Origin: Silicimonas sp.
GTDB lineage: Bacteria > Pseudomonadota > Alphaproteobacteria > Rhodobacterales > Rhodobacteraceae
NCBI GenBank assembly: GCA_025800205.1
Contig: JAOXSD010000174.1
Span: 9,544-73,543, forward strand
Length of the DNA stretch: 64,000 nt
Direction: 5' to 3'
Positions within the stretch are counted from its first letter, which is position 1, and the number at the start of each line of letters is the position of its first letter. Below the pieces are notes generated by a model. That model was given only the letters and a program-made list of their open reading frames with translations. It was not told where the DNA came from and ran no database searches. Positions 11,185 to 57,543 of the stretch are shown here, in pieces. The position numbers were made by a program, and so were the translations under genes.

Positions 11185-12732
11185 TCAGAGATCGATTAGC
11201 ACCTGGCGTGCGGTCTCCAGATAGGCTGTCTGTGTTTCCGGTTTCATCCGGTCCCAGGTGCGATAAATCTGCCCGAGACGCGGATTGCCGCCCAGCCTGT
11301 CCCGGTTGCGCACCAGAAAATCCCAGTAAAGCGGGTTGAACGGGCAGGCGCCTTTGCCTGTTTTCTTCTGCACGTCAAAGGCACATCTGCCGCAATGATC
11401 GGACATCTTGTTGATGTAATTGCCGCTGGCCGCATAGGGTTTGGAGCCGAGGATGCCGCCATCGGCAAACTGGCTCATGCCGATCACATTGGGCGCTTCG
11501 ACCCATTCGAATGCATCGGCATAGACCGCCAGATACCATTCATGTACCTCGGCAGGGGCGACACCGGCCAGCATGGCGAAATTTCCGGTGACCATCAGCC
11601 GCTGGATGTGGTGGGCATAGGCCTCGTCCCGGGTTTGGCCGATGGCGGCGGCCAGACAGGCCATTCCGGTGTCCCCGGTCCAGTAGAACTCCGGCAGCGG
11701 GCGCGTGGCCTCGAGGTGGTTCATCTCGGTCAGGCCGGGCATGAAACGCCAGTAGATCCCCCGCACATATTCCCGCCATCCGATGATCTGGCGGATATAG
11801 CCCTCCGCCGCATTGAGCGGAGTGTGGCCGTCCAGATATGCGCGTTCGACCCTTTGGCACACTTCCAGCGGGTTCAGGAGGCCCGCGTTCATGTAGTGGG
11901 ACAGAACCGAGTGATAGAGGAAGTTCTCGCCCTCCAGCATCGCGTCCTGATAATCGCCGAAGCCGGGGAGCGCCTCGGTTGCGAAATGCTCCAGCGCGAC
12001 AAGGGCATCCTTGCGGGTGACGGCGAACCAGAAGGGGCGCAGGCGGCCGAAGTGGTCGCCAAACCGGTCGGCCACCAGATCGAGCACCGCCTCGGTCGTG
12101 GCATCCGGCGCGACCTGAAGGGGGCGCGGCATGAACAGATCGCCGCGCGCCGGTTTGCGGTTCTCCTGATCGAAATTCCACTGGCCACCCTCCGGGGCGT
12201 CGCCCTGCATCAAAAGCCCGGTCTTGCGCCGCATCTCGCGATAGAAATATTCCATCCGCAGGGCCTTGCGCCCCTCCGCCCAGGCTTCGAACATCCCGTG
12301 ACTGGCCAGAAACCGGTCGTCTTCGAGCATCTCGATGGCCACGCCTTCGGCCTCGGCCCAATCGCGGATCGCGGCCCTCAGCCGGTATTCCCCGGGCTCG
12401 GTCACCAGCAGGCTGTCGCAGCCGCAGGCCGCCATGGCCCGTGCAATCTCGCCCGGAATGGTGCCGCTGTTGCCCGGCGCGTCCAGCGTCACGTAACGCA
12501 GGTTCCAGCCCTCGCCGCGCAGGTCTTCGGCAAAGTGCCGCATGGCTGACAGGATAAAGGCGATCTTCTTCTGATGGTGGCGCACATAGGTCGCCTCACC
12601 GGCCACTTCGGCCATCAGGATCACGTCACGCCCCGGGTCGGCGGCTTTCAGGGCCGCCAGATCGGGGCTGAGCTGATCGCCCAGAATCAGAACCAGCCGG
12701 CGGGTGGCAAGGGATGGGGAGGTGTCGGTCAT
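11185..12732 (-). CDS. cryB: Fe-S bacterial cryptochrome/photolyase family protein (CryB / PhrB (6-4) photolyase type)
   Basis: 515 aa. RRLVLILGDQLSPD N-terminus and HHIQRLMVTGNF FAD-domain motif. Four Cys in the FeS-BCP pattern: C in GMACLAAAIGQ, plus CGRC-x12-C in DHCGRCAFDVQKKTGKGACPFN. Confidence 0.85.
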   Translation of the reverse strand: MTDTSPSLATRRLVLILGDQLSPDLAALKAADPGRDVILMAEVAGEATYVRHHQKKIAFILSAMRHFAEDLRGEGWNLRYVTLDAPGNSGTIPGEIARAMAACGCDSLLVTEPGEYRLRAAIRDWAEAEGVAIEMLEDDRFLASHGMFEAWAEGRKALRMEYFYREMRRKTGLLMQGDAPEGGQWNFDQENRKPARGDLFMPRPLQVAPDATTEAVLDLVADRFGDHFGRLRPFWFAVTRKDALVALEHFATEALPGFGDYQDAMLEGENFLYHSVLSHYMNAGLLNPLEVCQRVERAYLDGHTPLNAAEGYIRQIIGWREYVRGIYWRFMPGLTEMNHLEATRPLPEFYWTGDTGMACLAAAIGQTRDEAYAHHIQRLMVTGNFAMLAGVAPAEVHEWYLAVYADAFEWVEAPNVIGMSQFADGGILGSKPYAASGNYINKMSDHCGRCAFDVQKKTGKGACPFNPLYWDFLVRNRDRLGGNPRLGQIYRTWDRMKPETQTAYLETARQVLIDL

Positions 12733-12779
12733 GGAGCGGAGCTAGGGCGAAACGGCCCCGCGCCCAGCCCGGTTTCGGA

Positions 12780-13442
12780 TCAGGACAGGCGCGCCCGTCT
12801 GGCCTGCAAATCCTCCGGGTCGGTTTGCAAAAGGCGCGCGGCTTGTTCCGGATCACCGCCCGATTGCAGAAGGGCCGCGTCGATGCAGGCTGTTTCGATG
12901 TCGCGGGCGGCCTGGCGCAGGATCTCGTCCAGGGAGGCGTGCCCCAGTTGCGCGGCGAACGGGGCCATGGGATCAGGCATGCCACCGGCCCGCTCCGCCA
13001 ATGCCCGTTCCAGCCGCAGCTGCTCGGTCGCATATTGCCGCTCGACGGAGACCATCGGCCCCAGATCGCGGGCCAGCACGAGATGTTTCGCCTGGCCCTC
13101 GTTCACGAAGCGAAAGAACTTCAACAGGAGAGGCAGGCTCTCACCGGGGCCCGTGCGCAAATTGAGATGGCGCCAGCGGCCGTCCGACCCGGCCTGCGCC
13201 GCATTGTCCGACAGCAGCAATGGCAGCTTTCCGGCACTCTCCGAAAGAACTAGATCCTCCAGCCGCTGGCCGATCCAATTCGAGACCGCAGCCGGGTCCA
13301 GTTGCGATGTCACATGGAGCCCGAGAATGCGCCCGTCATCGGAGAGATTGAGGGTCAGGTCGGAACATTGCCGGATCACCAGGGCGGATTGCGGCAGGGT
13401 CAGCGATGTCAGCCCCTCATCTCCGATCCACCGACTGGTCAT
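12780..13442 (-). CDS. Truncated PpsR-like regulator (N-terminal PAS domain, Q-linker and C-terminal Fis-type HTH-like tail; central PAS1/PAS2 absent), 220 aa
   Basis: Aligns by eye with the window's own PpsR. NWIGQRLEDLVLSES matches QWYGEDFRSTLTVES. LVLARDLGPMVSVERQYATEQLRLERAL matches LLLGRDLRPVAALQQQLIESQRALERDY. LDEILRQAARDIETACIDAALLQSGGDPEQAARLL matches LKDIVAETTDEVEKICIKTAVDMTGNNRVAAAEML. The ATG at 13440-13442 is one nt from the stop of the upstream gene. The track start at 13571 would overlap that gene by 128 nt. Confidence 0.7.
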   Translation of the reverse strand: MTSRWIGDEGLTSLTLPQSALVIRQCSDLTLNLSDDGRILGLHVTSQLDPAAVSNWIGQRLEDLVLSESAGKLPLLLSDNAAQAGSDGRWRHLNLRTGPGESLPLLLKFFRFVNEGQAKHLVLARDLGPMVSVERQYATEQLRLERALAERAGGMPDPMAPFAAQLGHASLDEILRQAARDIETACIDAALLQSGGDPEQAARLLQTDPEDLQARRARLS

Positions 13443-13443
13443 C

Positions 13444-14214
13444 TCACAACCGCTTTTCTGCAGGCAGCGGGTCTTGTCGTTGCCGCAAATGGCGCGAGGC
13501 AGCGCCGGCATCGAGAAAAATCCGGTCGGCGCCCAGGAAGGCGTATTGCTCCAGCGGCGCGGTAAAGGCACCGCCGCCCAGAAGCACTTCCAGTTTCGAA
13601 TTCACGCTTTCCATGCGGGCATCCAGGATGAAATCGGCCATTCCAAGCAGGTTCCTATCATATCCCACGGAAATGCCCAATGCACAGGTCGCCGCAGTGG
13701 AGACCTCCTGCAGAACATCACGCGGATCCTGTCCGGTGATCATGGTCACATCCCAGCCTTCGGCGGTAAGCCGGTCGGCCAGCATTTGCGGTCCCAGCAG
13801 GTGATCCTCTTCGGCTGGCACGAACAATACGAAATTGCCGCAACCCCGCGCTCTGCCCGGTGCCGATCCGTCCAGTGTCGCGCTCAGCCGTCGCAGCAGG
13901 CCAAAGGCCTGGGCCACTTCGCTCGGAGAATGACGTCGTGTCTGGAGCGAGACCTGCAGGGTTTCGACAGAGCGCAACAACAGTGCCCTGCGCGCCACCG
14001 GGGTTCTGAGATCCTCGATCTGCGCGCGCGCGACCGCCATGTCGGAGCGCAGGGCCGCATTGAGAAAGTCGAGCTGTGCATCAAGCGAGACTTGCCTGGG
14101 TGCTCTGGCCTGATTTGCGTTGCTCAAGGCTGTTGCCAGGCTCGCGCGCTGAAGCATCAGCCCCTTGATCAGCCAGCCCTCGGTCTCGTTGCAGATTGAT
14201 GTCGCGCCGTCCAT
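13444..14214 (-). CDS. B12-binding-domain protein, AerR/PpaA-like (or AppA-SCHIC-like), second copy, 256 aa
   Basis: Helical N-terminal half, then a Rossmann-type cobalamin-binding domain with an ExHxxG motif: FVLFVPAEEDHLLGPQMLADRLTAEGWDV. The window's PpaA has VAVILRDCEQHTLGPIILANKLRLAGHTA. Shares RNL...LGG further on. Lies 63 nt downstream of the bchO stop. Confidence 0.7.
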   Translation of the reverse strand: MDGATSICNETEGWLIKGLMLQRASLATALSNANQARAPRQVSLDAQLDFLNAALRSDMAVARAQIEDLRTPVARRALLLRSVETLQVSLQTRRHSPSEVAQAFGLLRRLSATLDGSAPGRARGCGNFVLFVPAEEDHLLGPQMLADRLTAEGWDVTMITGQDPRDVLQEVSTAATCALGISVGYDRNLLGMADFILDARMESVNSKLEVLLGGGAFTAPLEQYAFLGADRIFLDAGAASRHLRQRQDPLPAEKRL

Positions 14215-14277
14215 CCCGTACCGAAGCTCCGTTCCATCCGTCTCGACAAAAAAAGCTTAGATGGGAATCTGGGTTCG

Positions 14278-15141
14278 TCAAGTCTGGCGTGATCCGGCAA
14301 GAAAGGCCCGCAGCGGGGTGGCGACGGTTTGCGGGGCTTCCTCCTGGGCCAGGTGACCCAGATCCGGCAGGACAATCAGGCGCGCCTGCGGGAGCCGGTC
14401 GGCGGCCTTGCGTCCGACCTCCGGCGGGACGGTTCGATCCCGTTCACCGACCAGCACCAGCGCCGACGCCTTCACCGCGGGCAGCGCGCGCAGAAGCGGC
14501 TTGAGATCCCAGGCGGCCATCATGGCCAGGGTGGCCGCCACGTGATCCCGGTCTTGCAAAAGGTGCAGGTAGCGCTGTTCCATGTCGGGCGTGATCTGTG
14601 ATCCGGTGGCGCGCAGCAATCTGCGGACCGTGCCCTTTCGTCCGGCCATGGTGCTGAACAGATCGGCTGTGAACGGCGCGCGGACCAGCCCGCGGGCAAG
14701 GGCGGGGAAGAGCCAGCCCGCCAGGCCTTCGAACCCGCTCAACGCCGGATTGATCAGGACGACGGCGGCGTTCCGTCCCCGCCGGCTCATCTCAAGCGCA
14801 ATTGCGGCCCCCGCTGAATGGCCGACGAGACCTGCAACGGGCCATCCTCCCGCTGTCAGCAAGGCGTCCAGATCTTCCGCCATGGCCGCCAGCCCGAACC
14901 GCCCCGGCCGTCCGGCCCGGGTGAAGCCCTGACCGGTCAGATCCGGAATGATCAGTGTGAACTCGTCTTTCAGGACATCCGCCAACCCGTGCCAGCTTTG
15001 CCCCGCGCCTCCCGCGCCGTGAAGCATCACCAGCCCTGGGCCGCGCCCCAGAACCTGCACATGCCAGCGGTGGCCTGCGGCCTCGATCTGGCGGCTGGCC
15101 TCGGCATGGGGCCAACCATGGGCCTGGGGCGGCCATTTCAC
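14278..15141 (-). CDS. bchO: BchO, alpha/beta-hydrolase-fold protein of the bchIDO operon
   Basis: (V)KWPPQAHGWPH...WHVQVLGRGPGLVMLHGAGGAGQSWHGL...LVGHSAGAAIAL. GTG start at 15139-15141 forms a GTGA overlap with the bchD stop. The 427-aa track ORF is an upstream extension over bchD. Confidence 0.85.
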   Translation of the reverse strand: MKWPPQAHGWPHAEASRQIEAAGHRWHVQVLGRGPGLVMLHGAGGAGQSWHGLADVLKDEFTLIIPDLTGQGFTRAGRPGRFGLAAMAEDLDALLTAGGWPVAGLVGHSAGAAIALEMSRRGRNAAVVLINPALSGFEGLAGWLFPALARGLVRAPFTADLFSTMAGRKGTVRRLLRATGSQITPDMEQRYLHLLQDRDHVAATLAMMAAWDLKPLLRALPAVKASALVLVGERDRTVPPEVGRKAADRLPQARLIVLPDLGHLAQEEAPQTVATPLRAFLAGSRQT

Positions 15142-16769
15142 ACCGCCCCCTCCAGCGCACGGGCAATCGCCCCGCTCATCCGGCGCGCATCCGCATGGGG
15201 CAGGGGCAGATAGGTGGCGGCCAGTGCGTCGGCAAGGCCGGGCAGGGTGGCTGAGGGGCGCGCGCCGGTGTCGATCACCATCGCGCTGACACGGTCGTCG
15301 GCCATCTGCCGGGCCACCCGGCTTGCATCCCCCATGGCATTGGCCCGGTTGCCGCTGCCATCGAGGGCCACATTGGCGCGGCCATCGGTCAACAGGATCA
15401 GCGCCGGGCTCATGCCGCGCCGCCGGGCGGCCTGTGCCTCGGCCCGCGCCGCCACCAGGCCCGCGGCCAGCGGTGTGCCGCCACCACCGGGGAGTGCGGT
15501 CAACCGCTTGCGGGTCTGGATCAGCGACCGGGTCGGGGGAAGCAACAGCGACGCTTCGCATCGGCGAAAGCCGATCAGGGCCACGTGGTCGCGCCGGGCA
15601 TAGGCCTGACCCAACAGGATCTCCACCGCGCCTTTCGCCTCCGCAAGCCGCGCCATGGCGGCCGATCCGGAGGCATCCACTGCAAAGATCAAAAGCCGGT
15701 CGGACCGGTGTTCAAACCGTCTGATCCGGAAATCCGAGGGTCGCAGCGCCAGCGCCATACCCTTCGGGCGCGGGCGCAACCCCTGCCAGGGCGCGGCGGC
15801 CCGCAGGGTGGCGATCACATCGAGCCGGGCGCCGCTGGTCAGCCGTCCGTTTTGTGCAGCAAGCGGTCGCCCGCGCCGGTTGTGGGCCTGTCTCGCCCCG
15901 CTGCCGGTGGTGGTCTGCGCCGCCCGTTGCCGCTGTCCCGCTTGCAACTGCGCCAGCAGATCCGCAGGCAGCGCCGCCTGCGCCGCGTCGATCAGCAATT
16001 CCTCGGGCGGTGAAGCGGTGTTCTGCGGTACGGGGGAATGGCTTTCTTCGGTCTCCGGCGGCGGCGCCTCGGGGGCCGGTGCCGTCCTTGCCCGATGGGC
16101 AAGGACCAGGGCGGCTGCACAGGTCAGATCCTCGGTCGCAACCCGCTCGCGACCGGCTTGCCCCGCCAGATGCCGCGCCGCCCTTGCGGCCATGAGCACG
16201 GGGCGCAGGGACGCAATCCCGAGACCGGATGCCGCTGCAGCGAGGTCCGTGATCTGTTCAGGGGTCAGCTCTGCTGGCGGGTCAGGTGCCCAGGTGCCGA
16301 CCTCGCCACTCTCGCGATGGGAGAGCCCGTCGAGATCGAGAAAGAACGCCAGCCGTTCGGTCAGCCCATGGGGCGGCAGTTCCTCGCAACTGGCCCCCTC
16401 GTCGAGCGCCACCACCCCATGCAGCCCCGCGTCGATCAGCCCGGTCAACCGGGCCGCAAATCCCGGCGTTGCGCGCTCCGCCATGGACAAGGCAAGCACA
16501 TCGGCGCGGGTGGCGATGCCGCCGGTTTCAACCAAACGTCCGGTGGCCAGCATCGCGGTCAGATCGCGCCCGCCGAACAGCGCCTCATCGCTCACATGGG
16601 GATGGATGTCGCCCAGCCGCAGATCAAGCGCGCGAAGGACCGCGATCACGCCCTGGCGCACCGGCCCGTGCCGGGCCCGGATCCAGATCCCTCCGAATCC
16701 TGCGGGATCGGCGGCAAACAGGCGCAGGACCAGCGCCACCCGGTCCCAGCCTTCGGGCGCCGCATTCAT
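15138..16769 (-). CDS. bchD: Mg-chelatase subunit D
   Basis: 543 aa. AAA-like N-terminal half, Pro/acidic linker (APAPEAPPPETEES) and a C-terminal VWA domain with the MIDAS motif FAVDASGS. Overlaps the bchI stop. Confidence 0.9.
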   Translation of the reverse strand: MNAAPEGWDRVALVLRLFAADPAGFGGIWIRARHGPVRQGVIAVLRALDLRLGDIHPHVSDEALFGGRDLTAMLATGRLVETGGIATRADVLALSMAERATPGFAARLTGLIDAGLHGVVALDEGASCEELPPHGLTERLAFFLDLDGLSHRESGEVGTWAPDPPAELTPEQITDLAAAASGLGIASLRPVLMAARAARHLAGQAGRERVATEDLTCAAALVLAHRARTAPAPEAPPPETEESHSPVPQNTASPPEELLIDAAQAALPADLLAQLQAGQRQRAAQTTTGSGARQAHNRRGRPLAAQNGRLTSGARLDVIATLRAAAPWQGLRPRPKGMALALRPSDFRIRRFEHRSDRLLIFAVDASGSAAMARLAEAKGAVEILLGQAYARRDHVALIGFRRCEASLLLPPTRSLIQTRKRLTALPGGGGTPLAAGLVAARAEAQAARRRGMSPALILLTDGRANVALDGSGNRANAMGDASRVARQMADDRVSAMVIDTGARPSATLPGLADALAATYLPLPHADARRMSGAIARALEGAV

Positions 16770-51851: not shown

Positions 51852-55156
<3,305 letters not shown>

Positions 55157-55250: not shown

Positions 55251-56108
55251 GTGGCCCCGGCGGGGCCAGACATCCTCGGTGCTGTGACAGACCAGCGCGA
55301 GAGACAGATCATGACCGAAGCCTCATATTTCAAAGGCGCGGATAACGACGGGGTTCCGTCCCTATTGTGGGAAACGGTTGCCCGCGAGGCCCTTGAGGCC
55401 GTCGCCTCCAAGCCGCCGCCCGCGACCGGCGAAAAAGCCGATCCGGTCTTTGACCCGGCCTGGGTGCGCGAGATTGCCGATGCGGCCCATGACCCGCAAC
55501 TCACCCGGATCGGGCGGATCATCGATGGCTTGCTGGAACATGGCGTCGCTCCGCTGGCGATCATCGAGACCTATTGCGCCGAGGCCGCGCGCCTGCTGGG
55601 TGAGGATTGGCATTTCGACAGGCTCAGCTTTGCGCAGGTTTCCATTGGCACCGCGCGGTTGCAGGGGGTGGTGCGGGCGCTTTACGCCTCGCTTCCCCCT
55701 CAGGCGCTGGATCACGGCGCCCAGGTTGCGGTGATCCTGCGGGATTGCGAACAGCACACCCTGGGCCCGATCATCCTTGCCAACAAGCTGCGACTGGCCG
55801 GCCACACCGCCTGGCTGGCAGCTGGTTTCAGCGATGAGGAGATCCTCGAGCGCCTGAGCCGCCAAAGATTTGACATGGTTCTGTGCTCGGTCTCCCAGGA
55901 GCGAAATCTTGCAAATCTCGACAGCTTCCTGCAGACCGTGCGGGACCGCTGCGACAACCGGCTGGACATCGCGCTTGGCGGCAGTTTTCTCGACCGCTGC
56001 GGATCTCAGGCGGCAAGTGATACAGGAGCCGACATGGTGACGTCCGACATTCAGTTGATCCTGGACCGCCTGGCCGACCGAAGCACGAAGGCGCGGACCG
56101 CCACATGA
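55251..56108 (+). CDS. ppaA: Cobalamin-binding antirepressor PpaA / AerR
   Basis: B12-binding domain with an ExHxxG motif (VAVILRDCEQHTLGPIILANKLRLAGH). Lies immediately upstream of ppsR and divergent from bchF. GTG start at 55251; an ATG at 55311 (MTEASYF) is an alternative. Confidence 0.85.
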   Translation: MAPAGPDILGAVTDQRERQIMTEASYFKGADNDGVPSLLWETVAREALEAVASKPPPATGEKADPVFDPAWVREIADAAHDPQLTRIGRIIDGLLEHGVAPLAIIETYCAEAARLLGEDWHFDRLSFAQVSIGTARLQGVVRALYASLPPQALDHGAQVAVILRDCEQHTLGPIILANKLRLAGHTAWLAAGFSDEEILERLSRQRFDMVLCSVSQERNLANLDSFLQTVRDRCDNRLDIALGGSFLDRCGSQAASDTGADMVTSDIQLILDRLADRSTKARTAT

Positions 56109-56133
56109 GCAGGACAACAAGCGAGGGCGATGA

Positions 56134-57543
56134 ATGACCCAGCGAGGAACGGAATTCTGGACCGGCGGCGCGGTGCCGATCATCGGGCCCGAGGTGCTGA
56201 TCAGCATTGTCGGCAGCGCCTCTGATGTGGCGGTGGTGGTGAACCCCGAAGACGCCATCGTCTCGGTCATGGTCAATCCCAACGCCCATGGTCTGGAGGC
56301 CTTTGACCAGTGGTATGGCGAGGATTTCCGCAGCACGCTGACCGTCGAGAGCCTTGCCAAATTCGAGGAACGCGCCGCCCTATTGCGCGGCGGCGGCGAC
56401 AGCCGGGCGGCGCTTGAGCTGAACCACACCTTCCCGGGTGGCAGCGATGCGCCCATGCAATATTGGGTGTTTCGCATCGGCAGCGATCCGACGCTTCTGC
56501 TGTTGGGCCGTGATCTGCGCCCGGTGGCTGCCCTTCAGCAACAGCTGATCGAAAGCCAGCGCGCCCTTGAACGCGATTATGAAATTCAGCGCGAGGCGGA
56601 AACCCGACTTCGGGTGGCGCTCGAATCCGCCGATCAGGCAATGATCTTTGCTTCGCTCACCAGCGGCCGGATCCGCATGGTCAATCAGCGCGCCTGTGAC
56701 CTGTTGGGGGTGAAGCGCGATCTGGTGGTCGACAGCGCGCTCAGCAGCCATTTTACCGGCCTGCCGGGCGAGATCATCGACCGGTTGGTCCATGCCGGGT
56801 CCGAGGATCTGGGCAAGCCGGTCGAACTGACGGTCAAGCGCAACGCTCAGGCGGTGCTGGCCGCGCCAATCCTTTATCGCGCCTCAGGCGAGAAGATGCT
56901 GCTCTGCCGGCTCAACTTGCCCGATCAAAACCCCATGCGCCGCGATGGGCTTGGCGACCTCCTGACCGGCCATTATCAGAACATGAGCGACGGCATGCTC
57001 TTCGTGAATGGCTCGGGCACGATCAAGACCGCCAATGACGCGTTCCTGAGCCTCTGCCTGGCGCCCGATCTGAACCGGGTCACCAGTCGGCCATTGGCGG
57101 ATTTTCTTGAGCGCGGGACCCTGGATGTGCGGCTCGCCCTGGAGAATGCCGCACGCAACGGAGAAATACAGGGTTTTGCCACACGTCTTCGCACAGAGCA
57201 CGGCGAAACTCTGGCCGTGGAGCTGTTTGTCACGGCGGTGGATACGGGCGAGGGGGAGATGTATGCGGTCACCTTCCGCGACATGGCCCGCCGGGCGACC
57301 ACCACTCCGGGCGCTTCGGACGGCAGGGATCGCAAGGCGCAGAACGTGGCGGATCTGGTGGGCAGCACGCCCCTGAAGGACATCGTGGCCGAAACCACCG
57401 ACGAGGTGGAAAAGATCTGCATCAAGACGGCGGTGGACATGACCGGAAACAACCGGGTGGCCGCTGCCGAGATGCTCGGCCTCAGCCGCCAGAGCCTTTA
57501 TGTGAAACTGCGCAAATTCGGACTGCTCAAGAAGGACGGTTGA
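56134..57543 (+). CDS. ppsR: Photosynthesis gene repressor PpsR / CrtJ
   Basis: 469 aa. N-domain, Q-linker (QQQLIESQRALERDYEIQREAE), two PAS domains and a C-terminal Fis-type HTH (GNNRVAAAEMLGLSRQSLYVKLRKFGLL). Confidence 0.92.
   Translation: MTQRGTEFWTGGAVPIIGPEVLISIVGSASDVAVVVNPEDAIVSVMVNPNAHGLEAFDQWYGEDFRSTLTVESLAKFEERAALLRGGGDSRAALELNHTFPGGSDAPMQYWVFRIGSDPTLLLLGRDLRPVAALQQQLIESQRALERDYEIQREAETRLRVALESADQAMIFASLTSGRIRMVNQRACDLLGVKRDLVVDSALSSHFTGLPGEIIDRLVHAGSEDLGKPVELTVKRNAQAVLAAPILYRASGEKMLLCRLNLPDQNPMRRDGLGDLLTGHYQNMSDGMLFVNGSGTIKTANDAFLSLCLAPDLNRVTSRPLADFLERGTLDVRLALENAARNGEIQGFATRLRTEHGETLAVELFVTAVDTGEGEMYAVTFRDMARRATTTPGASDGRDRKAQNVADLVGSTPLKDIVAETTDEVEKICIKTAVDMTGNNRVAAAEMLGLSRQSLYVKLRKFGLLKKDG

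What the first reader, a model, noticed from the sequence alone, without database searches (positions are those of the whole stretch)
11185..14214. A second AerR/PpaA-like plus truncated PpsR-like pair lies between bchO and the cryptochrome gene cryB
The window already has the canonical ppaA-ppsR pair at 55251-57543. A second, much more divergent pair sits on the minus strand directly downstream of crtA-bchI-bchD-bchO. It is a 256-aa B12-binding-domain protein (13444-14214) whose stop is one nucleotide from the start of a 220-aa PpsR-like protein (12780-13442). That gene is followed 47 nt later by the Fe-S cryptochrome/photolyase gene cryB (11185-12732). All three are co-directional, the gap to the bchO stop is only 63 nt, and I see no convincing terminator there, so they could form an operon or extend the bchIDO transcript. 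In Rhodobacter sphaeroides, CryB modulates photosynthesis gene expression and has been reported to bind the B12-like SCHIC domain of AppA, and AppA antagonises PpsR. This locus encodes no BLUF domain. It does place a flavin blue-light receptor next to a stand-alone SCHIC/AerR-like domain and a mini-PpsR. That would fit a split, three-protein analogue of the AppA-PpsR light/redox switch. I am not aware that such a module has been described.
Basis: partly seen in the sequence, partly recalled or inferred. Interest (0 to 1): 0.85.

Follow-up and report, generated by a model that had tools for sequence, protein, structure and literature searches.

The report
Second B12-sensor plus mini-PpsR gene pair
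Next to the photosynthesis genes of a marine Silicimonas bacterium sits a conserved, so far undescribed two-gene cassette: a vitamin-B12-binding sensor and a cut-down copy of the photosynthesis repressor PpsR that seems to have lost its DNA-reading residues. The neighbouring cryptochrome gene is probably just a neighbour.

Summary
All three minus-strand ORFs, their lengths and the 63-, 1- and 47-nt gaps are as described, and the homologies hold.

The 256-aa protein is an AerR/PpaA-type cobalamin-binding protein (four-helix cap plus Rossmann fold, ExHxxG histidine). The 220-aa protein is the PpsR N-terminal PAS domain, the first half of the Q-linker helix and a small three-helix C-terminal domain.

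The pair is not a recent truncation of the resident ppaA-ppsR. It belongs to an old, essentially monophyletic family of about 70 clusters at 50% identity. In about 16 other independent loci the B12 gene lies directly upstream, abutting or overlapping the mini-PpsR gene.

None of those loci has cryB. Three of them, like the window, sit at a photosynthesis-cluster border. One is a cultured strain, Roseinatronobacter sp. S2.

The family's helix-turn-helix has lost the DNA-contact residues that full-length PpsR conserves (R-Q-S-x-Y, net charge +3.6 against 0). Twelve clusters lack this domain altogether.

My reading is a B12/light-sensing antirepressor-like protein paired with a probably DNA-blind PpsR fragment that keeps the known antirepressor docking helix. 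It probably acts through protein-protein contacts on the PpsR node. The three-protein CryB module is not supported.

The parts
13444..14214 (-). AerR/PpaA-like cobalamin-binding protein (256 aa), the first gene of the cassette
   Evidence: PF02310 E=4e-7. The profile of 11 family members hits AerR 7te2 at E=1.4e-18 across cap and Rossmann fold, AppA SCHIC at 9e-9 and CarH at 2e-4. The AF2 model (pLDDT 77.8) matches B12 photoreceptor domains and AerR by Foldseek. NCBI name: 'cobalamin B12-binding domain-containing protein'.
13873..14085 (-). Four-helix-bundle cap of the B12 protein (residues about 44-114), the presumed docking surface for the Q-linker helix
   Evidence: AF2 helices H44-55, H59-67, H72-91 and H97-114. 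This region aligns to the AerR cap. The window copy has Leu where 10 of 11 family members and AerR (Trp94) have Trp.
13477..13836 (-). Rossmann-type B12-binding domain (residues about 127-246) with the E-D-H138-L-L-G141 ... S182-x-G184 ... G213-G214 fingerprint
   Evidence: H138, G141, S182, G184, G213 and G214 are invariant in 11 family members. His138 aligns with AerR His145, the lower cobalt ligand.
14116..14214 (-). N-terminal tail with Cys8...Trp14 and an extra helix (residues 9-33)
   Evidence: The long forms of the partner proteins conserve a C-x(2-6)-W-[LIV] motif. The extra helix is AF2 H9-33. It occupies the same position as the His10 tail and alpha1 helix of LAerR (PMC9144470). Its role is inferred only.
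13443..13443 (-). One-nucleotide spacer between the B12-gene stop and the mini-PpsR start (TGA-g-ATG)
   Evidence: Read directly. In relatives the two genes overlap by 4-8 nt or lie 2-24 nt apart. This suggests translational coupling.
12780..13442 (-). Mini-PpsR (220 aa): PpsR N-domain, half a Q-linker and a degenerate three-helix domain. Second gene of the cassette
   Evidence: TIGR02040 E=1e-13 to positions 4-123 only. AF2 pLDDT 93.9. The top seven Foldseek PDB hits are all PpsR (4hh3, 4hh2, 4l9g). It lies inside a clade holding 68 of 70 short proteins.
13065..13397 (-). N-terminal PAS domain (residues about 16-126) with the family signatures RWRHLN and PLLLKF
   Evidence: AF2 secondary structure. 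W56, K72, W90-R91-H92, N94, P104, L106 and R125-D126-L127 are at least 90% conserved in 70 sequences.
12984..13061 (-). Long helix (residues 128-153), equivalent to the N-terminal half of the PpsR Q-linker
   Evidence: AF2 H128-153. Equivalents of Q133 and E144 are kept (64% and 66% of members) and conservation is lost beyond the hinge. The Q-linker is the AppA four-helix-bundle binding site (PMC3949515) and the modelled AerR site (PMC9144470).
12786..12932 (-). C-terminal three-helix, HTH_8-like domain (residues 171-219). The redox Cys equivalent is kept but the PpsR DNA-contact residues are not
   Evidence: HTH_8 scores only 18 bits, below the cut-off of 22. In a column comparison of 56 mini and 87 full-length sequences, R64, Q65, S66 and Y68 are lost. 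Acidic residues occupy column 65 in 33 of 56 and column 66 in 42 of 56. Net charge is 0.0 against +3.6. The Cys is kept in 50 of 56. The window copy also has Gln in place of the turn Gly.
14215..14277 (-). 63-nt gap between the bchO stop and the B12-gene start
   Evidence: Read directly. No terminator-like hairpin, no TGT-N12-ACA site and no sigma-70-like promoter by consensus scan.
12733..12779 (-). 47-nt gap between the mini-PpsR stop and the cryB start
   Evidence: Read directly. The RNA fold is no better than shuffles.
11185..12732 (-). cryB/phrB-type Fe-S (6-4) photolyase/cryptochrome gene. It is a neighbour in this genome only, not part of the conserved cassette
   Evidence: PDB PhrB E=7e-197 and CryB E=4e-190. 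No homologue lies next to the cassette in any other locus.
55251..57543 (+). Canonical ppaA (55251-56108) and full-length ppsR (56134-57543), the likely system on which the cassette acts
   Evidence: TGT-N12-ACA sites lie upstream at 55066 and 55139.

Best explanation
The region 12780-14214 is a self-contained two-gene cassette, probably translationally coupled, and a member of an old and so far undescribed family.

Gene 1 encodes an AerR/PpaA-type protein. It has a four-helix cap and a Rossmann domain with the His-on B12 fingerprint, so it most likely binds cobalamin and senses B12 and/or light (inferred).

Gene 2 encodes only the PpsR N-terminal PAS domain, the first half of the Q-linker helix and a small three-helix domain. 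That domain keeps the fold and the redox-cysteine position of the PpsR helix-turn-helix but has lost the conserved DNA-contact residues.

The Q-linker is the known docking site for the four-helix bundle of AppA, and the modelled site for AerR. I therefore infer that the two products form a complex through a cap/Q-helix contact.

I also infer that the output is protein-protein rather than operator binding. The DNA-blind PpsR fragment, or its B12 partner once released, would modulate the resident PpaA-PpsR switch. It could do this by forming mixed oligomers with full-length PpsR or by titrating its antirepressor.

cryB is a lineage-specific neighbour and is not a component.

Shown: the gene anatomy, the homologies, conservation of the pair, non-conservation of cryB, loss of DNA-contact residues, repeated loss of the C-terminal domain, and occurrence at photosynthesis-cluster borders in 4 of about 17 loci.

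Inferred: B12 binding, complex formation, action on PpsR, and light dependence.
For: - Pair conserved: the B12 gene is directly upstream, on the same strand, overlapping or abutting the mini-PpsR gene, wherever the upstream gene could be identified.
- Old, separate family: the exhaustive profile search lists about 70 short (150-255 aa) cluster representatives ahead of the full-length PpsRs. In the NJ tree, 68 of 70 fall in one clade, and the window copy is closer to P0002 (0.48) than to its own PpsR (0.83).
- Mini-PpsR structure: the model has pLDDT 93.9 and its best PDB matches are all the PpsR N-domain plus Q-linker.
- Partner identity: the family profile hits AerR at E=1.4e-18. H138, G141, S182, G184, G213 and G214 are invariant. 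Foldseek matches B12 photoreceptor domains.
- Q-linker as the antirepressor docking site: PMC3949515 and PMC9144470.
- DNA-contact residues lost: R64 is present in 0 of the 56 mini sequences against 81 of 87 full-length ones. Q65 and S66 are replaced by D/E in 33 and 42 of 56. Y68 is lost. Net charge is 0.0 against +3.6.
- Twelve representatives lack the domain. Real stop codons were verified in genomic loci L010, L011, L014 and L018. The losses are scattered over at least five places in the tree.
- No TGT-N12-ACA site and no shared palindrome lies upstream of the cassettes.
- Link to photosynthesis: the window cassette is at the bchO border. L003, L007 and Roseinatronobacter sp. S2 have it at the puhE-hemA-cytochrome c border. 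The window and S2 also carry the canonical ppaA-ppsR.
Against: - No interaction, cofactor or expression data exist for any member.
- The C-terminal three-helix domain is retained in about 80% of clusters with conserved scaffold residues and the Cys. It is therefore under selection and could still bind DNA with a different specificity.
- Most loci (about 13 of 17) are not next to photosynthesis genes within the sequence available. I could not check whether those genomes carry ppsR at all.
- The window's B12 protein lacks the cap Trp found in the rest of the family. Its Pfam score is just below threshold, so B12 binding by this particular copy is less certain.
- The NJ tree has no support values.
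- The palindrome search has low power.
Confidence: 0.45

Rival explanations
1. Autonomous small transcription factor. The mini-PpsR dimer binds DNA through its C-terminal helix-turn-helix at an operator different from TGT-N12-ACA. The B12 protein acts as its light/B12-dependent antirepressor or co-regulator. This would be a reduced AerR-CrtJ system with its own regulon, which in this genome could include cryB.
For: The three-helix domain is predicted with high confidence (pLDDT 93-98 over residues 171-219). It is kept in about 80% of clusters. It keeps the scaffold residues and the Cys equivalent to the redox-active Cys of the CrtJ DNA-binding domain (50 of 56). The C-termini of several members match the PpsR helix-turn-helix at E=1e-10 to 1e-5. 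The AerR-CrtJ and PpaA-PpsR precedents have the same gene order.
Against: All residues conserved in the PpsR recognition helix are replaced, mostly by acidic or aliphatic residues, and net charge is 0. HTH_8 scores below the Pfam cut-off. The domain was lost repeatedly. No shared palindrome lies upstream of the cassettes. No neighbouring gene is conserved as a candidate target. The window copy also lacks the turn glycine.
Confidence: 0.25
2. CryB, the B12-domain protein and the mini-PpsR form a split three-protein analogue of the AppA-PpsR light/redox switch. CryB supplies the flavin blue-light input by binding the SCHIC-like B12 domain.
For: In this genome cryB lies 47 nt downstream on the same strand, with no terminator-like structure between. 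In Rhodobacter sphaeroides, CryB binds the SCHIC domain of AppA and modulates AppA-PpsR binding (PMC3401432). The B12 protein shares the SCHIC fold (AppA E=9e-9).
Against: None of about 16 other independent cassette loci has a cryB homologue nearby, including the cultured Roseinatronobacter sp. S2. The cassette's downstream neighbours are unrelated genes (RsgA GTPase, acetyltransferase, SH3 protein, MFS transporter, UmuC). The partner is AerR-like, not SCHIC-like. CryB/PhrB proteins are (6-4) photolyases.
Confidence: 0.07
3. Decaying duplicate. The pair is a degenerating copy of ppaA-ppsR with an internal deletion and has no function.
For: The domain architecture is truncated. The window copies are the more deviant members: the cap Trp is Leu, the HTH turn Gly is Gln, and GC3 of the B12 gene is 0.69 against about 0.77 for its neighbours.
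Against: Both reading frames are intact. The family has about 70 clusters down to about 22% identity with strongly conserved motifs. It forms a clade distinct from full-length PpsR. The tight gene coupling is conserved. The structure model has pLDDT 93.9.
Confidence: 0.03

Closest known systems
AerR-CrtJ (Rhodobacter capsulatus) and PpaA-PpsR (Cereibacter sphaeroides, Dinoroseobacter shibae) antirepressor-repressor pairs
   Same: The gene order is the same: a B12-binding four-helix-cap/Rossmann protein directly upstream of, and coupled to, a PpsR-type gene. The ExHxxG lower-ligand histidine is present. AerR is the best PDB match of the partner family (E=1.4e-18). The PpsR-type N-domain and Q-linker are present, and so is the Cys at the position of the redox-active Cys of the CrtJ DNA-binding domain. 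The partners come in long and short N-terminal forms, reminiscent of LAerR and SAerR.
   Different: The PpsR-type protein lacks PAS1, PAS2 and the second half of the Q-linker. Its helix-turn-helix lacks the conserved R-Q-S-x-Y/K/R-R residues or is absent altogether. The partners carry an N-terminal Cys...Trp motif instead of His10. The family is a separate clade that co-exists with the canonical pair in the same genome, usually away from the ppaA-ppsR position and often outside the photosynthesis cluster.
AppA-PpsR2 complex (PDB 4HH3)
   Same: The AppA four-helix bundle docks on the PpsR Q-linker. The cassette retains exactly these two elements (cap and N-domain/Q-helix). The window B12 protein has Leu at the cap position where AppA has L239 and AerR has W94.
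   Different: There is no BLUF domain and no Cys-rich tail. The histidine is in the cobalamin register, not shifted by two residues. The eight-residue SCHIC loop said to hinder cobalamin binding is absent. The sequence is closer to AerR than to AppA.
CarH/LitR-type B12 photoreceptor repressors
   Same: They share the B12-binding photoreceptor fold (Foldseek E about 1e-5; profile E=2e-4). A light-dependent change in cap position is a plausible signalling mode.
   Different: CarH fuses the B12 module to its own MerR DNA-binding domain. Here the B12 module stands alone and is paired with a PAS protein.
Engineered BphP1-QPAS1 optogenetic pair (a truncated Rhodopseudomonas palustris PpsR2 fragment)
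   Same: It shows that a PpsR fragment containing the Q-linker can serve as a photoreceptor-binding module (title and abstract of PMC13058837; further details are from my own knowledge).
   Different: QPAS1 is man-made, keeps PAS1 rather than the N-domain, and binds a bacteriophytochrome rather than a B12 protein.
Dominant-negative 'microProteins' such as Id (HLH without the basic region) or LITTLE ZIPPER (functional analogy only, from general knowledge)
   Same: These are short paralogues that keep the oligomerisation module of a transcription factor but lack a working DNA-binding surface.
   Different: There is no homology. Heteromer formation with PpsR is not shown here. The cassette also has its own dedicated sensor partner.
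CryB (R. sphaeroides) / PhrB (Agrobacterium) Fe-S bacterial cryptochrome-photolyase family
   Same: The 11185-12732 product is a clear member (E about 1e-190; DPRP domain; four Fe-S cysteines aligned).
   Different: No evidence links it to the cassette beyond adjacency in this one genome.

Membership tests
PpsR/CrtJ (TIGR02040) | Whole-protein score above the NCBIfam equivalog cut-off (275.4 bits) | tested here: not met
   51.1 bits. Only profile positions 4-123 of 442 are matched.
PpsR/CrtJ (TIGR02040) | N-terminal PAS domain followed by the Q-linker helix | tested here: met
   The AF2 model has a PAS domain at 16-126 and a helix at 128-153. The top seven Foldseek hits are PpsR structures. 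Only the N-terminal half of the Q-linker is conserved.
PpsR/CrtJ (TIGR02040) | Two further PAS domains (PAS1, PAS2) | tested here: not met
   The protein is 220 aa. There are no PAS hits beyond the N-domain, and the model goes from the helix straight to the C-terminal domain.
PpsR/CrtJ (TIGR02040) | Fis-type helix-turn-helix with the conserved recognition helix S-R-Q-S-L-Y-x-K...R-R | tested here: not met
   HTH_8 scores 18 bits against a cut-off of 22. R64, Q65, S66 and Y68 are absent in all or nearly all of 56 family members. The window sequence is T-D-P-E-D-L-Q-A-R.
PpsR/CrtJ (TIGR02040) | Cys in helix 1 of the DNA-binding domain (the redox-active Cys of CrtJ/PpsR) | tested here: met
   A Cys occupies the aligned column in 50 of 56 mini and 76 of 87 full-length proteins. 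The window sequence is I-E-T-A-C-I.
PpsR/CrtJ (TIGR02040) | Binds TGT-N12-ACA operators and represses photosynthesis genes | not testable with these tools
   The window has 12 such sites against 4.5 expected, at crtA/crtI, ppaA and elsewhere, but none near the cassette. Binding needs EMSA or ChIP.
AerR/PpaA cobalamin-binding antirepressors | [quoted passage not shown] | tested here: met
   The family profile hits AerR 7te2 at E=1.4e-18 over profile positions 46-234. AF2 secondary structure and Foldseek agree. The relative in Roseinatronobacter S2 passes both the PF02607 and PF02310 cut-offs. The window copy scores 30.2 bits on PF02310 against a cut-off of 32.1.
AerR/PpaA cobalamin-binding antirepressors | Lower axial His in the (D/E)xHxxG motif, with the downstream SxL/GG fingerprints | tested here: met
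   E-D-H138-L-L-G141, S182-x-G184 and G213-G214 are invariant in 11 members. His138 aligns with AerR His145.
AerR/PpaA cobalamin-binding antirepressors | Aromatic cap (Trp94 in AerR) over the upper ligand | tested here: not met
   The window protein has Leu at this column. Ten of 11 family members have Trp. AppA has Leu here (PMC9144470).
AerR/PpaA cobalamin-binding antirepressors | Upper-ligand His in the N-terminal tail (His10 of LAerR) | tested here: not met
   There is no His in the first 30 residues. A conserved Cys...Trp motif is found instead.
AerR/PpaA cobalamin-binding antirepressors | Encoded directly upstream of, and linked to, a ppsR-type gene | tested here: met
   A 1-nt spacer in the window and the same arrangement in all related loci. 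The partner gene is the mini form, not full-length ppsR.
AerR/PpaA cobalamin-binding antirepressors | Binds cobalamin and binds PpsR/CrtJ | not testable with these tools
   This needs UV-vis spectra of purified protein and interaction assays.
AppA SCHIC domain | N-terminal BLUF domain, heme-ligand His shifted by two residues, and an eight-residue loop blocking cobalamin | tested here: not met
   No BLUF hit. The His is in the AerR register. No insertion relative to AerR after the third strand. The AppA E-value is ten orders of magnitude weaker than that of AerR.
Fe-S bacterial cryptochrome/(6-4) photolyase (CryB/PhrB) | DPRP N-terminal domain, full-length similarity to PhrB/CryB and four Fe-S cluster cysteines | tested here: met
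   PF04244 E=4.7e-82. 4dja E=7e-197 and 3zxs E=4e-190. The C...CxxC...C cysteines align with PhrB.

The most novel reading that the evidence does not exclude
The cassette is a new class of accessory photosynthesis regulator. A cobalamin photoreceptor or redox sensor controls the availability of a DNA-blind PpsR 'microprotein'. That fragment (N-PAS plus half a Q-linker) poisons or re-tunes full-length PpsR oligomers, or sequesters PpaA. This would add a B12/light input to the PpsR switch in aerobic anoxygenic phototrophs. It would be a bacterial counterpart of Id-type dominant-negative regulators, and the conserved N-terminal Cys of the sensor might serve as an unusual upper cobalt ligand.
Probability: 0.25. 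Interest if true: 0.8.

Novelty: new variant of a known kind. Interest (0 to 1): 0.62.

Why it matters
PpsR/CrtJ with its antirepressors (AppA, AerR/PpaA, LdaP, BphP1) is the central light/oxygen switch for bacteriochlorophyll-based photosynthesis.

A second, conserved sensor/PpsR-fragment pair that co-exists with the canonical one would be an unrecognised layer of that switch in marine and freshwater aerobic anoxygenic phototrophs.

It would also be a natural minimal version of the antirepressor/Q-linker interface, which could be useful for B12- or green-light-based optogenetics.

The family currently has no Pfam or NCBIfam model and is annotated 'hypothetical'. A cultured host, Roseinatronobacter sp. 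S2, makes it directly testable.

Tried and rejected
- **Operator upstream of the cassette.** I looked for TGT-N12-ACA PpsR boxes in the window and in 14 related upstream regions. None was found near the window cassette, and only one match (in L012) among the related upstream regions.
- **Shared palindrome.** A search for any shared inverted repeat upstream of the cassettes gave nothing above shuffles. The test has low power.
- **Terminators and promoters in the two gaps.** The consensus scan and RNA folds gave nothing above shuffles. Alphaproteobacterial promoters are not covered by the scan.
- **HTH encoded separately downstream of the short forms.** tblastn with family C-termini found none.
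- **Word-based homologue search for the B12 protein.** It found only the protein itself, and three hits with a profile. The family had to be collected through gene neighbourhoods instead.
- **First genome scan.** The nine-sequence alignment had no conserved stretch to search with. It was repeated with five sequences. Two of the seven loci returned were ordinary full-length sphingomonad ppsR genes (L015, L016).
- **Metagenome scan.** It gave only three usable loci.
- **Structure prediction of the B12 protein.** A four-sequence alignment gave only pLDDT 77.8.
- **Recent duplication of the resident ppsR.** Rejected by the tree and distances.
- **Pseudogene.** Rejected by family conservation.
- **P0072 (315 aa) as a longer architecture.** It is a mini form with an apparent frameshifted tail.

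Full report
**1. Observation**

The window comes from a MAG assigned to Silicimonas sp. Its proteins MCV6593451 to MCV6593453 are the three products in question.

On the minus strand lie, in order:
- bchO (TIGR03056, stop at 14278);
- a 256-aa ORF at 13444-14214;
- a 220-aa ORF at 12780-13442;
- a 515-aa ORF at 11185-12732.

There are 63 nt between the bchO stop and the first ATG. The second junction reads TGA-g-ATG. There are 47 nt before the cryB ATG.

The terminator scan and RNA folds of the two gaps show nothing above shuffled controls (z = 0.37 and 0.58). The consensus scan also found no sigma-70-type promoter, but that scan does not cover alphaproteobacterial promoter types.

Codon-position GC is coding-like for both small genes. 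The 541-aa ORF on the opposite strand is a shadow.

The canonical ppaA (AerR E=9e-23) and ppsR (469 aa, HTH_8 45 bits) are at 55251-57543. The gene downstream of cryB is a GFA-family gene, so the photosynthesis cluster ends at bchO and the three genes sit on its border.

**2. What the three proteins are**

*The cryB product.* It is a clear member of the Fe-S cryptochrome/(6-4) photolyase family. It matches PhrB at E=7e-197 and CryB at E=4e-190, has the DPRP domain, and its four cluster cysteines align.

*The 256-aa protein.* It scores just under the Pfam B12-binding cut-off on its own (30.2 against 32.1 bits). A profile of 11 family members, collected from gene neighbourhoods, gives a clearer picture:
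- AerR (7te2): E=1.4e-18, across both the four-helix cap and the Rossmann domain;
- AppA SCHIC: E=9e-9;
- CarH: E=2e-4.

His138 lies in E-D-H-L-L-G and aligns with the AerR lower ligand His145. H138, G141, S182, G184, G213 and G214 are invariant in the family. The AlphaFold model (pLDDT 77.8, shallow alignment) matches B12 photoreceptor domains and AerR by Foldseek.

The protein is AerR/PpaA-like rather than SCHIC-like. The histidine is in the cobalamin register. There is no insertion equivalent to the eight-residue SCHIC loop that is thought to exclude cobalamin.

The window copy differs from its family in one respect. It has Leu where AerR has the capping Trp94 and where 10 of 11 relatives have Trp. 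AppA also has Leu there.

*The 220-aa protein.* It matches the PpsR equivalog model only over profile positions 4-123 of 442 (E=1e-13). Its AlphaFold model is very confident (pLDDT 93.9) and shows three parts:
- a PAS domain at residues 16-126;
- a long helix at 128-153;
- three short helices at 171-219.

The seven best PDB matches are all PpsR N-domain plus Q-linker structures. The architecture is therefore the PpsR N-domain, the N-terminal half of the Q-linker and an HTH-like domain. PAS1, PAS2 and the PAS1 N-cap half of the Q-linker are missing (domain limits from PMC3949515).

**3. The pair is a conserved cassette; cryB is not part of it**

The word-indexed search found only nine relatives of the small protein. 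The exhaustive profile search lists about 70 short (150-255 aa) representatives at 50% identity. Most of them rank ahead of the full-length PpsRs, which start at about E=1e-29.

In a neighbour-joining tree of the N-domain/Q-helix region, 68 of 70 short proteins form one clade. The only 'long' protein inside it is a frameshifted member. The window protein is nearest to P0002 (distance 0.48) and far from its own PpsR (0.83). The family is therefore old and is not a recent truncation of the resident gene.

Family signatures are RWRHLN and PLLLK[FY].

I recovered about 16 other independent loci carrying this gene. Wherever the upstream gene could be identified, a B12-binding-domain gene of the same partner family lies immediately upstream on the same strand. 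It overlaps by 4-8 nt or is 2-24 nt away. In the 1-kb contig L020 an unidentified ORF overlaps the start by 4 nt.

None of these loci has a cryB homologue. The downstream neighbours are unrelated: RsgA GTPase, acetyltransferase, SH3 protein, MFS transporter, UmuC.

Three of these loci lie at the other end of a photosynthesis cluster, next to puhE-hemA-cytochrome c. They are L003, L007 and the cultured Roseinatronobacter sp. S2. With the window, that makes four border locations in at least three different arrangements.

Roseinatronobacter sp. S2 also carries the canonical ppaA-like gene and ppsR on the same 613-kb replicon. There, bchO is followed by crtC, with no cassette and no cryB.

**4. 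The C-terminal domain is not a PpsR-type DNA reader**

I aligned the last 62 residues of 87 full-length PpsR representatives and 56 family members.

| Feature | Full-length PpsR (87) | Mini family (56) |
|---|---|---|
| Scaffold: E36, R37, Cys39, turn Gly61, S63, L67 | conserved (Cys in 76) | conserved (Cys in 50) |
| R52 | 83 | 13 |
| R64 | 81 | 0 |
| Q65 | 81 | D/E in 33 |
| S66 | 75 | E/D in 42 |
| Y68 | 81 | absent |
| Net charge of recognition-helix region | +3.6 | 0.0 |

In the mini family, K70, R77 and R78 (81, 64 and 78 of 87 in full-length PpsR) are also much weaker. Column 70 stays basic (R or K) in only 38 of 56. R77 and R78 are Arg in 14 and 9 of 56.

The window copy reads T-D-P-E-D-L-Q-A-R and also lacks the turn glycine.

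Twelve representatives (152-180 aa) have no C-terminal domain at all. In genomic loci L010, L011, L014 and L018 the gene ends at a real stop codon. No HTH is encoded downstream in L010, L011, L012 or L014. These short forms are scattered over at least five places in the tree, which implies repeated loss (the tree has no support values).

No TGT-N12-ACA box and no shared palindrome lies upstream of the cassettes.

Two short proteins outside the clade (P0135) or of intermediate length (P0074) keep the canonical SRQSLY helix. Simple PAS deletions of true PpsR therefore exist, and they look different from this family.

**5. Mechanism**

Published structures show that the Q-linker is the site where AppA's four-helix bundle docks on PpsR (PMC3949515). 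AerR is modelled at the same site on CrtJ through the fourth helix of its cap (PMC9144470).

The cassette retains exactly these two elements, and its genes are arranged for coupled translation. I therefore infer a complex between the B12 protein's cap and the mini-PpsR helix. Cobalamin, and probably light as in AerR and CarH, would control the association.

The DNA-contact residues are gone and the C-terminal domain is dispensable in many lineages. The most likely output is therefore protein-protein. Three variants are possible:
- mixed oligomers of the fragment with full-length PpsR through the N-domain and Q-helix;
- titration of PpaA by the fragment;
- release of a second AerR-like factor that then acts on PpsR.

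The recurrent position at photosynthesis-cluster borders, and co-existence with canonical ppaA-ppsR in the two genomes where this could be checked, fit this reading. All of these steps are inferences.

The main rival is an autonomous small regulator with a new operator specificity. This is plausible because the three-helix fold and the cysteine at the position of the redox-active Cys of CrtJ are retained in about 80% of clusters.

**6. The CryB idea**

CryB binds the AppA SCHIC domain and affects the PpsR regulon in R. sphaeroides (PMC3401432).

Adjacency here is the only link. It is unique to this genome among about 17 loci, and the partner is closer to AerR than to SCHIC. A lineage-specific functional link cannot be excluded. 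cryB could be read through from the cassette, and a B12 sensor next to a photolyase is not absurd. I put this at about 0.07.

**7. Known or new**

Full-text searches found no paper describing a second AerR-like/truncated PpsR pair. The Rhodobacteraceae photosynthesis-cluster survey lists only 'not specific to PGC' genes after bchO.

NCBI annotates the small protein as hypothetical. No Pfam or NCBIfam model is specific for either protein.

I rate it a new variant of a known kind (the AerR/PpaA-PpsR family of sensor-regulator pairs). Its features are distinctive: loss of two PAS domains, a degenerate or absent HTH, and a Cys...Trp N-terminal motif in the sensor.

**8. Verdict**

Interest is 0.62. 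This is a real, conserved and unannotated regulatory cassette at a well-studied switch, with a cultured host for experiments. Its function is still inferred.

Noticed in passing
L024 11102-12681 (NZ_CP121115.1 44816-46395); L025 4926-7213: A cultured isolate, Roseinatronobacter sp. S2, carries the cassette (WP_277807033.1 'cobalamin-dependent protein' plus WP_277807034.1 'hypothetical protein', with a 4-nt overlap). It lies at the hemA/cytochrome c end of a photosynthesis cluster on a 613-kb replicon that also holds the canonical ppaA-like gene and ppsR. This strain is a ready experimental system.
   Followed up: partly
window 14173-14193 (Cys8 to Trp14 of the B12 protein); L004 4037-4816; L024 11102-11950: The long forms of the B12 partner share an N-terminal C-x(2-6)-W-[LIV] motif just before an extra predicted helix. 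This is the position where LAerR has its His10 tail and alpha1 helix. Shorter partners (L003, L011, L014) lack it, echoing the LAerR/SAerR split. The Cys could be an upper cobalt ligand or a redox sensor.
   Followed up: partly
L010 9962-10447; L011 9986-10465; L014 1279-1758; L018 945-1430; proteins P0031-P0062: There is a 152-180-aa subclass of the mini-PpsR family with no C-terminal HTH-like domain at all. These proteins end shortly after the Q-helix. They are scattered over at least five places in the tree, yet always have the B12 gene upstream wherever a locus was available.
   Followed up: yes
proteins P0135 (246 aa) and P0074 (360 aa): These PpsR-like proteins have two or one PAS domains deleted but keep a fully canonical SRQSLY recognition helix. 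They fall outside the mini-PpsR clade. They could be independent natural truncations of true PpsR, or assembly artefacts.
   Followed up: no
window 18519, 24031/24054, 26071/26097, 37981, 39188, 55066/55139: Twelve TGT-N12-ACA sites were found against 4.5 expected. Several occur as closely spaced pairs in intergenic regions of the photosynthesis cluster (crtA/crtI, upstream of ppaA, and others). These are likely the operators of the canonical PpsR.
   Followed up: no
window 13444-14214: The B12 gene has lower third-position GC (0.69) than its neighbours (0.77-0.79). Its product is the only one of 11 family members without the cap Trp. The window copy may be diverging in its cofactor chemistry.
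   Followed up: no
window 14278-15561 and 15138-16769: The mechanical bchO ORF (427 aa) overlaps the bchD ORF by about 420 nt. The BchO model matches only from residue 150, so the real bchO start is probably near the bchD stop (about 15138).
   Followed up: no
L003 1613-2092; L007 2386-2868; L024 12796-13272: A cytochrome c gene of about 159 aa (weak Pfam hits) lies between hemA and the cassette in all three loci at the puh end of the cluster. This matches the hemA-cycA end of the Dinoroseobacter photosynthesis cluster.
   Followed up: partly
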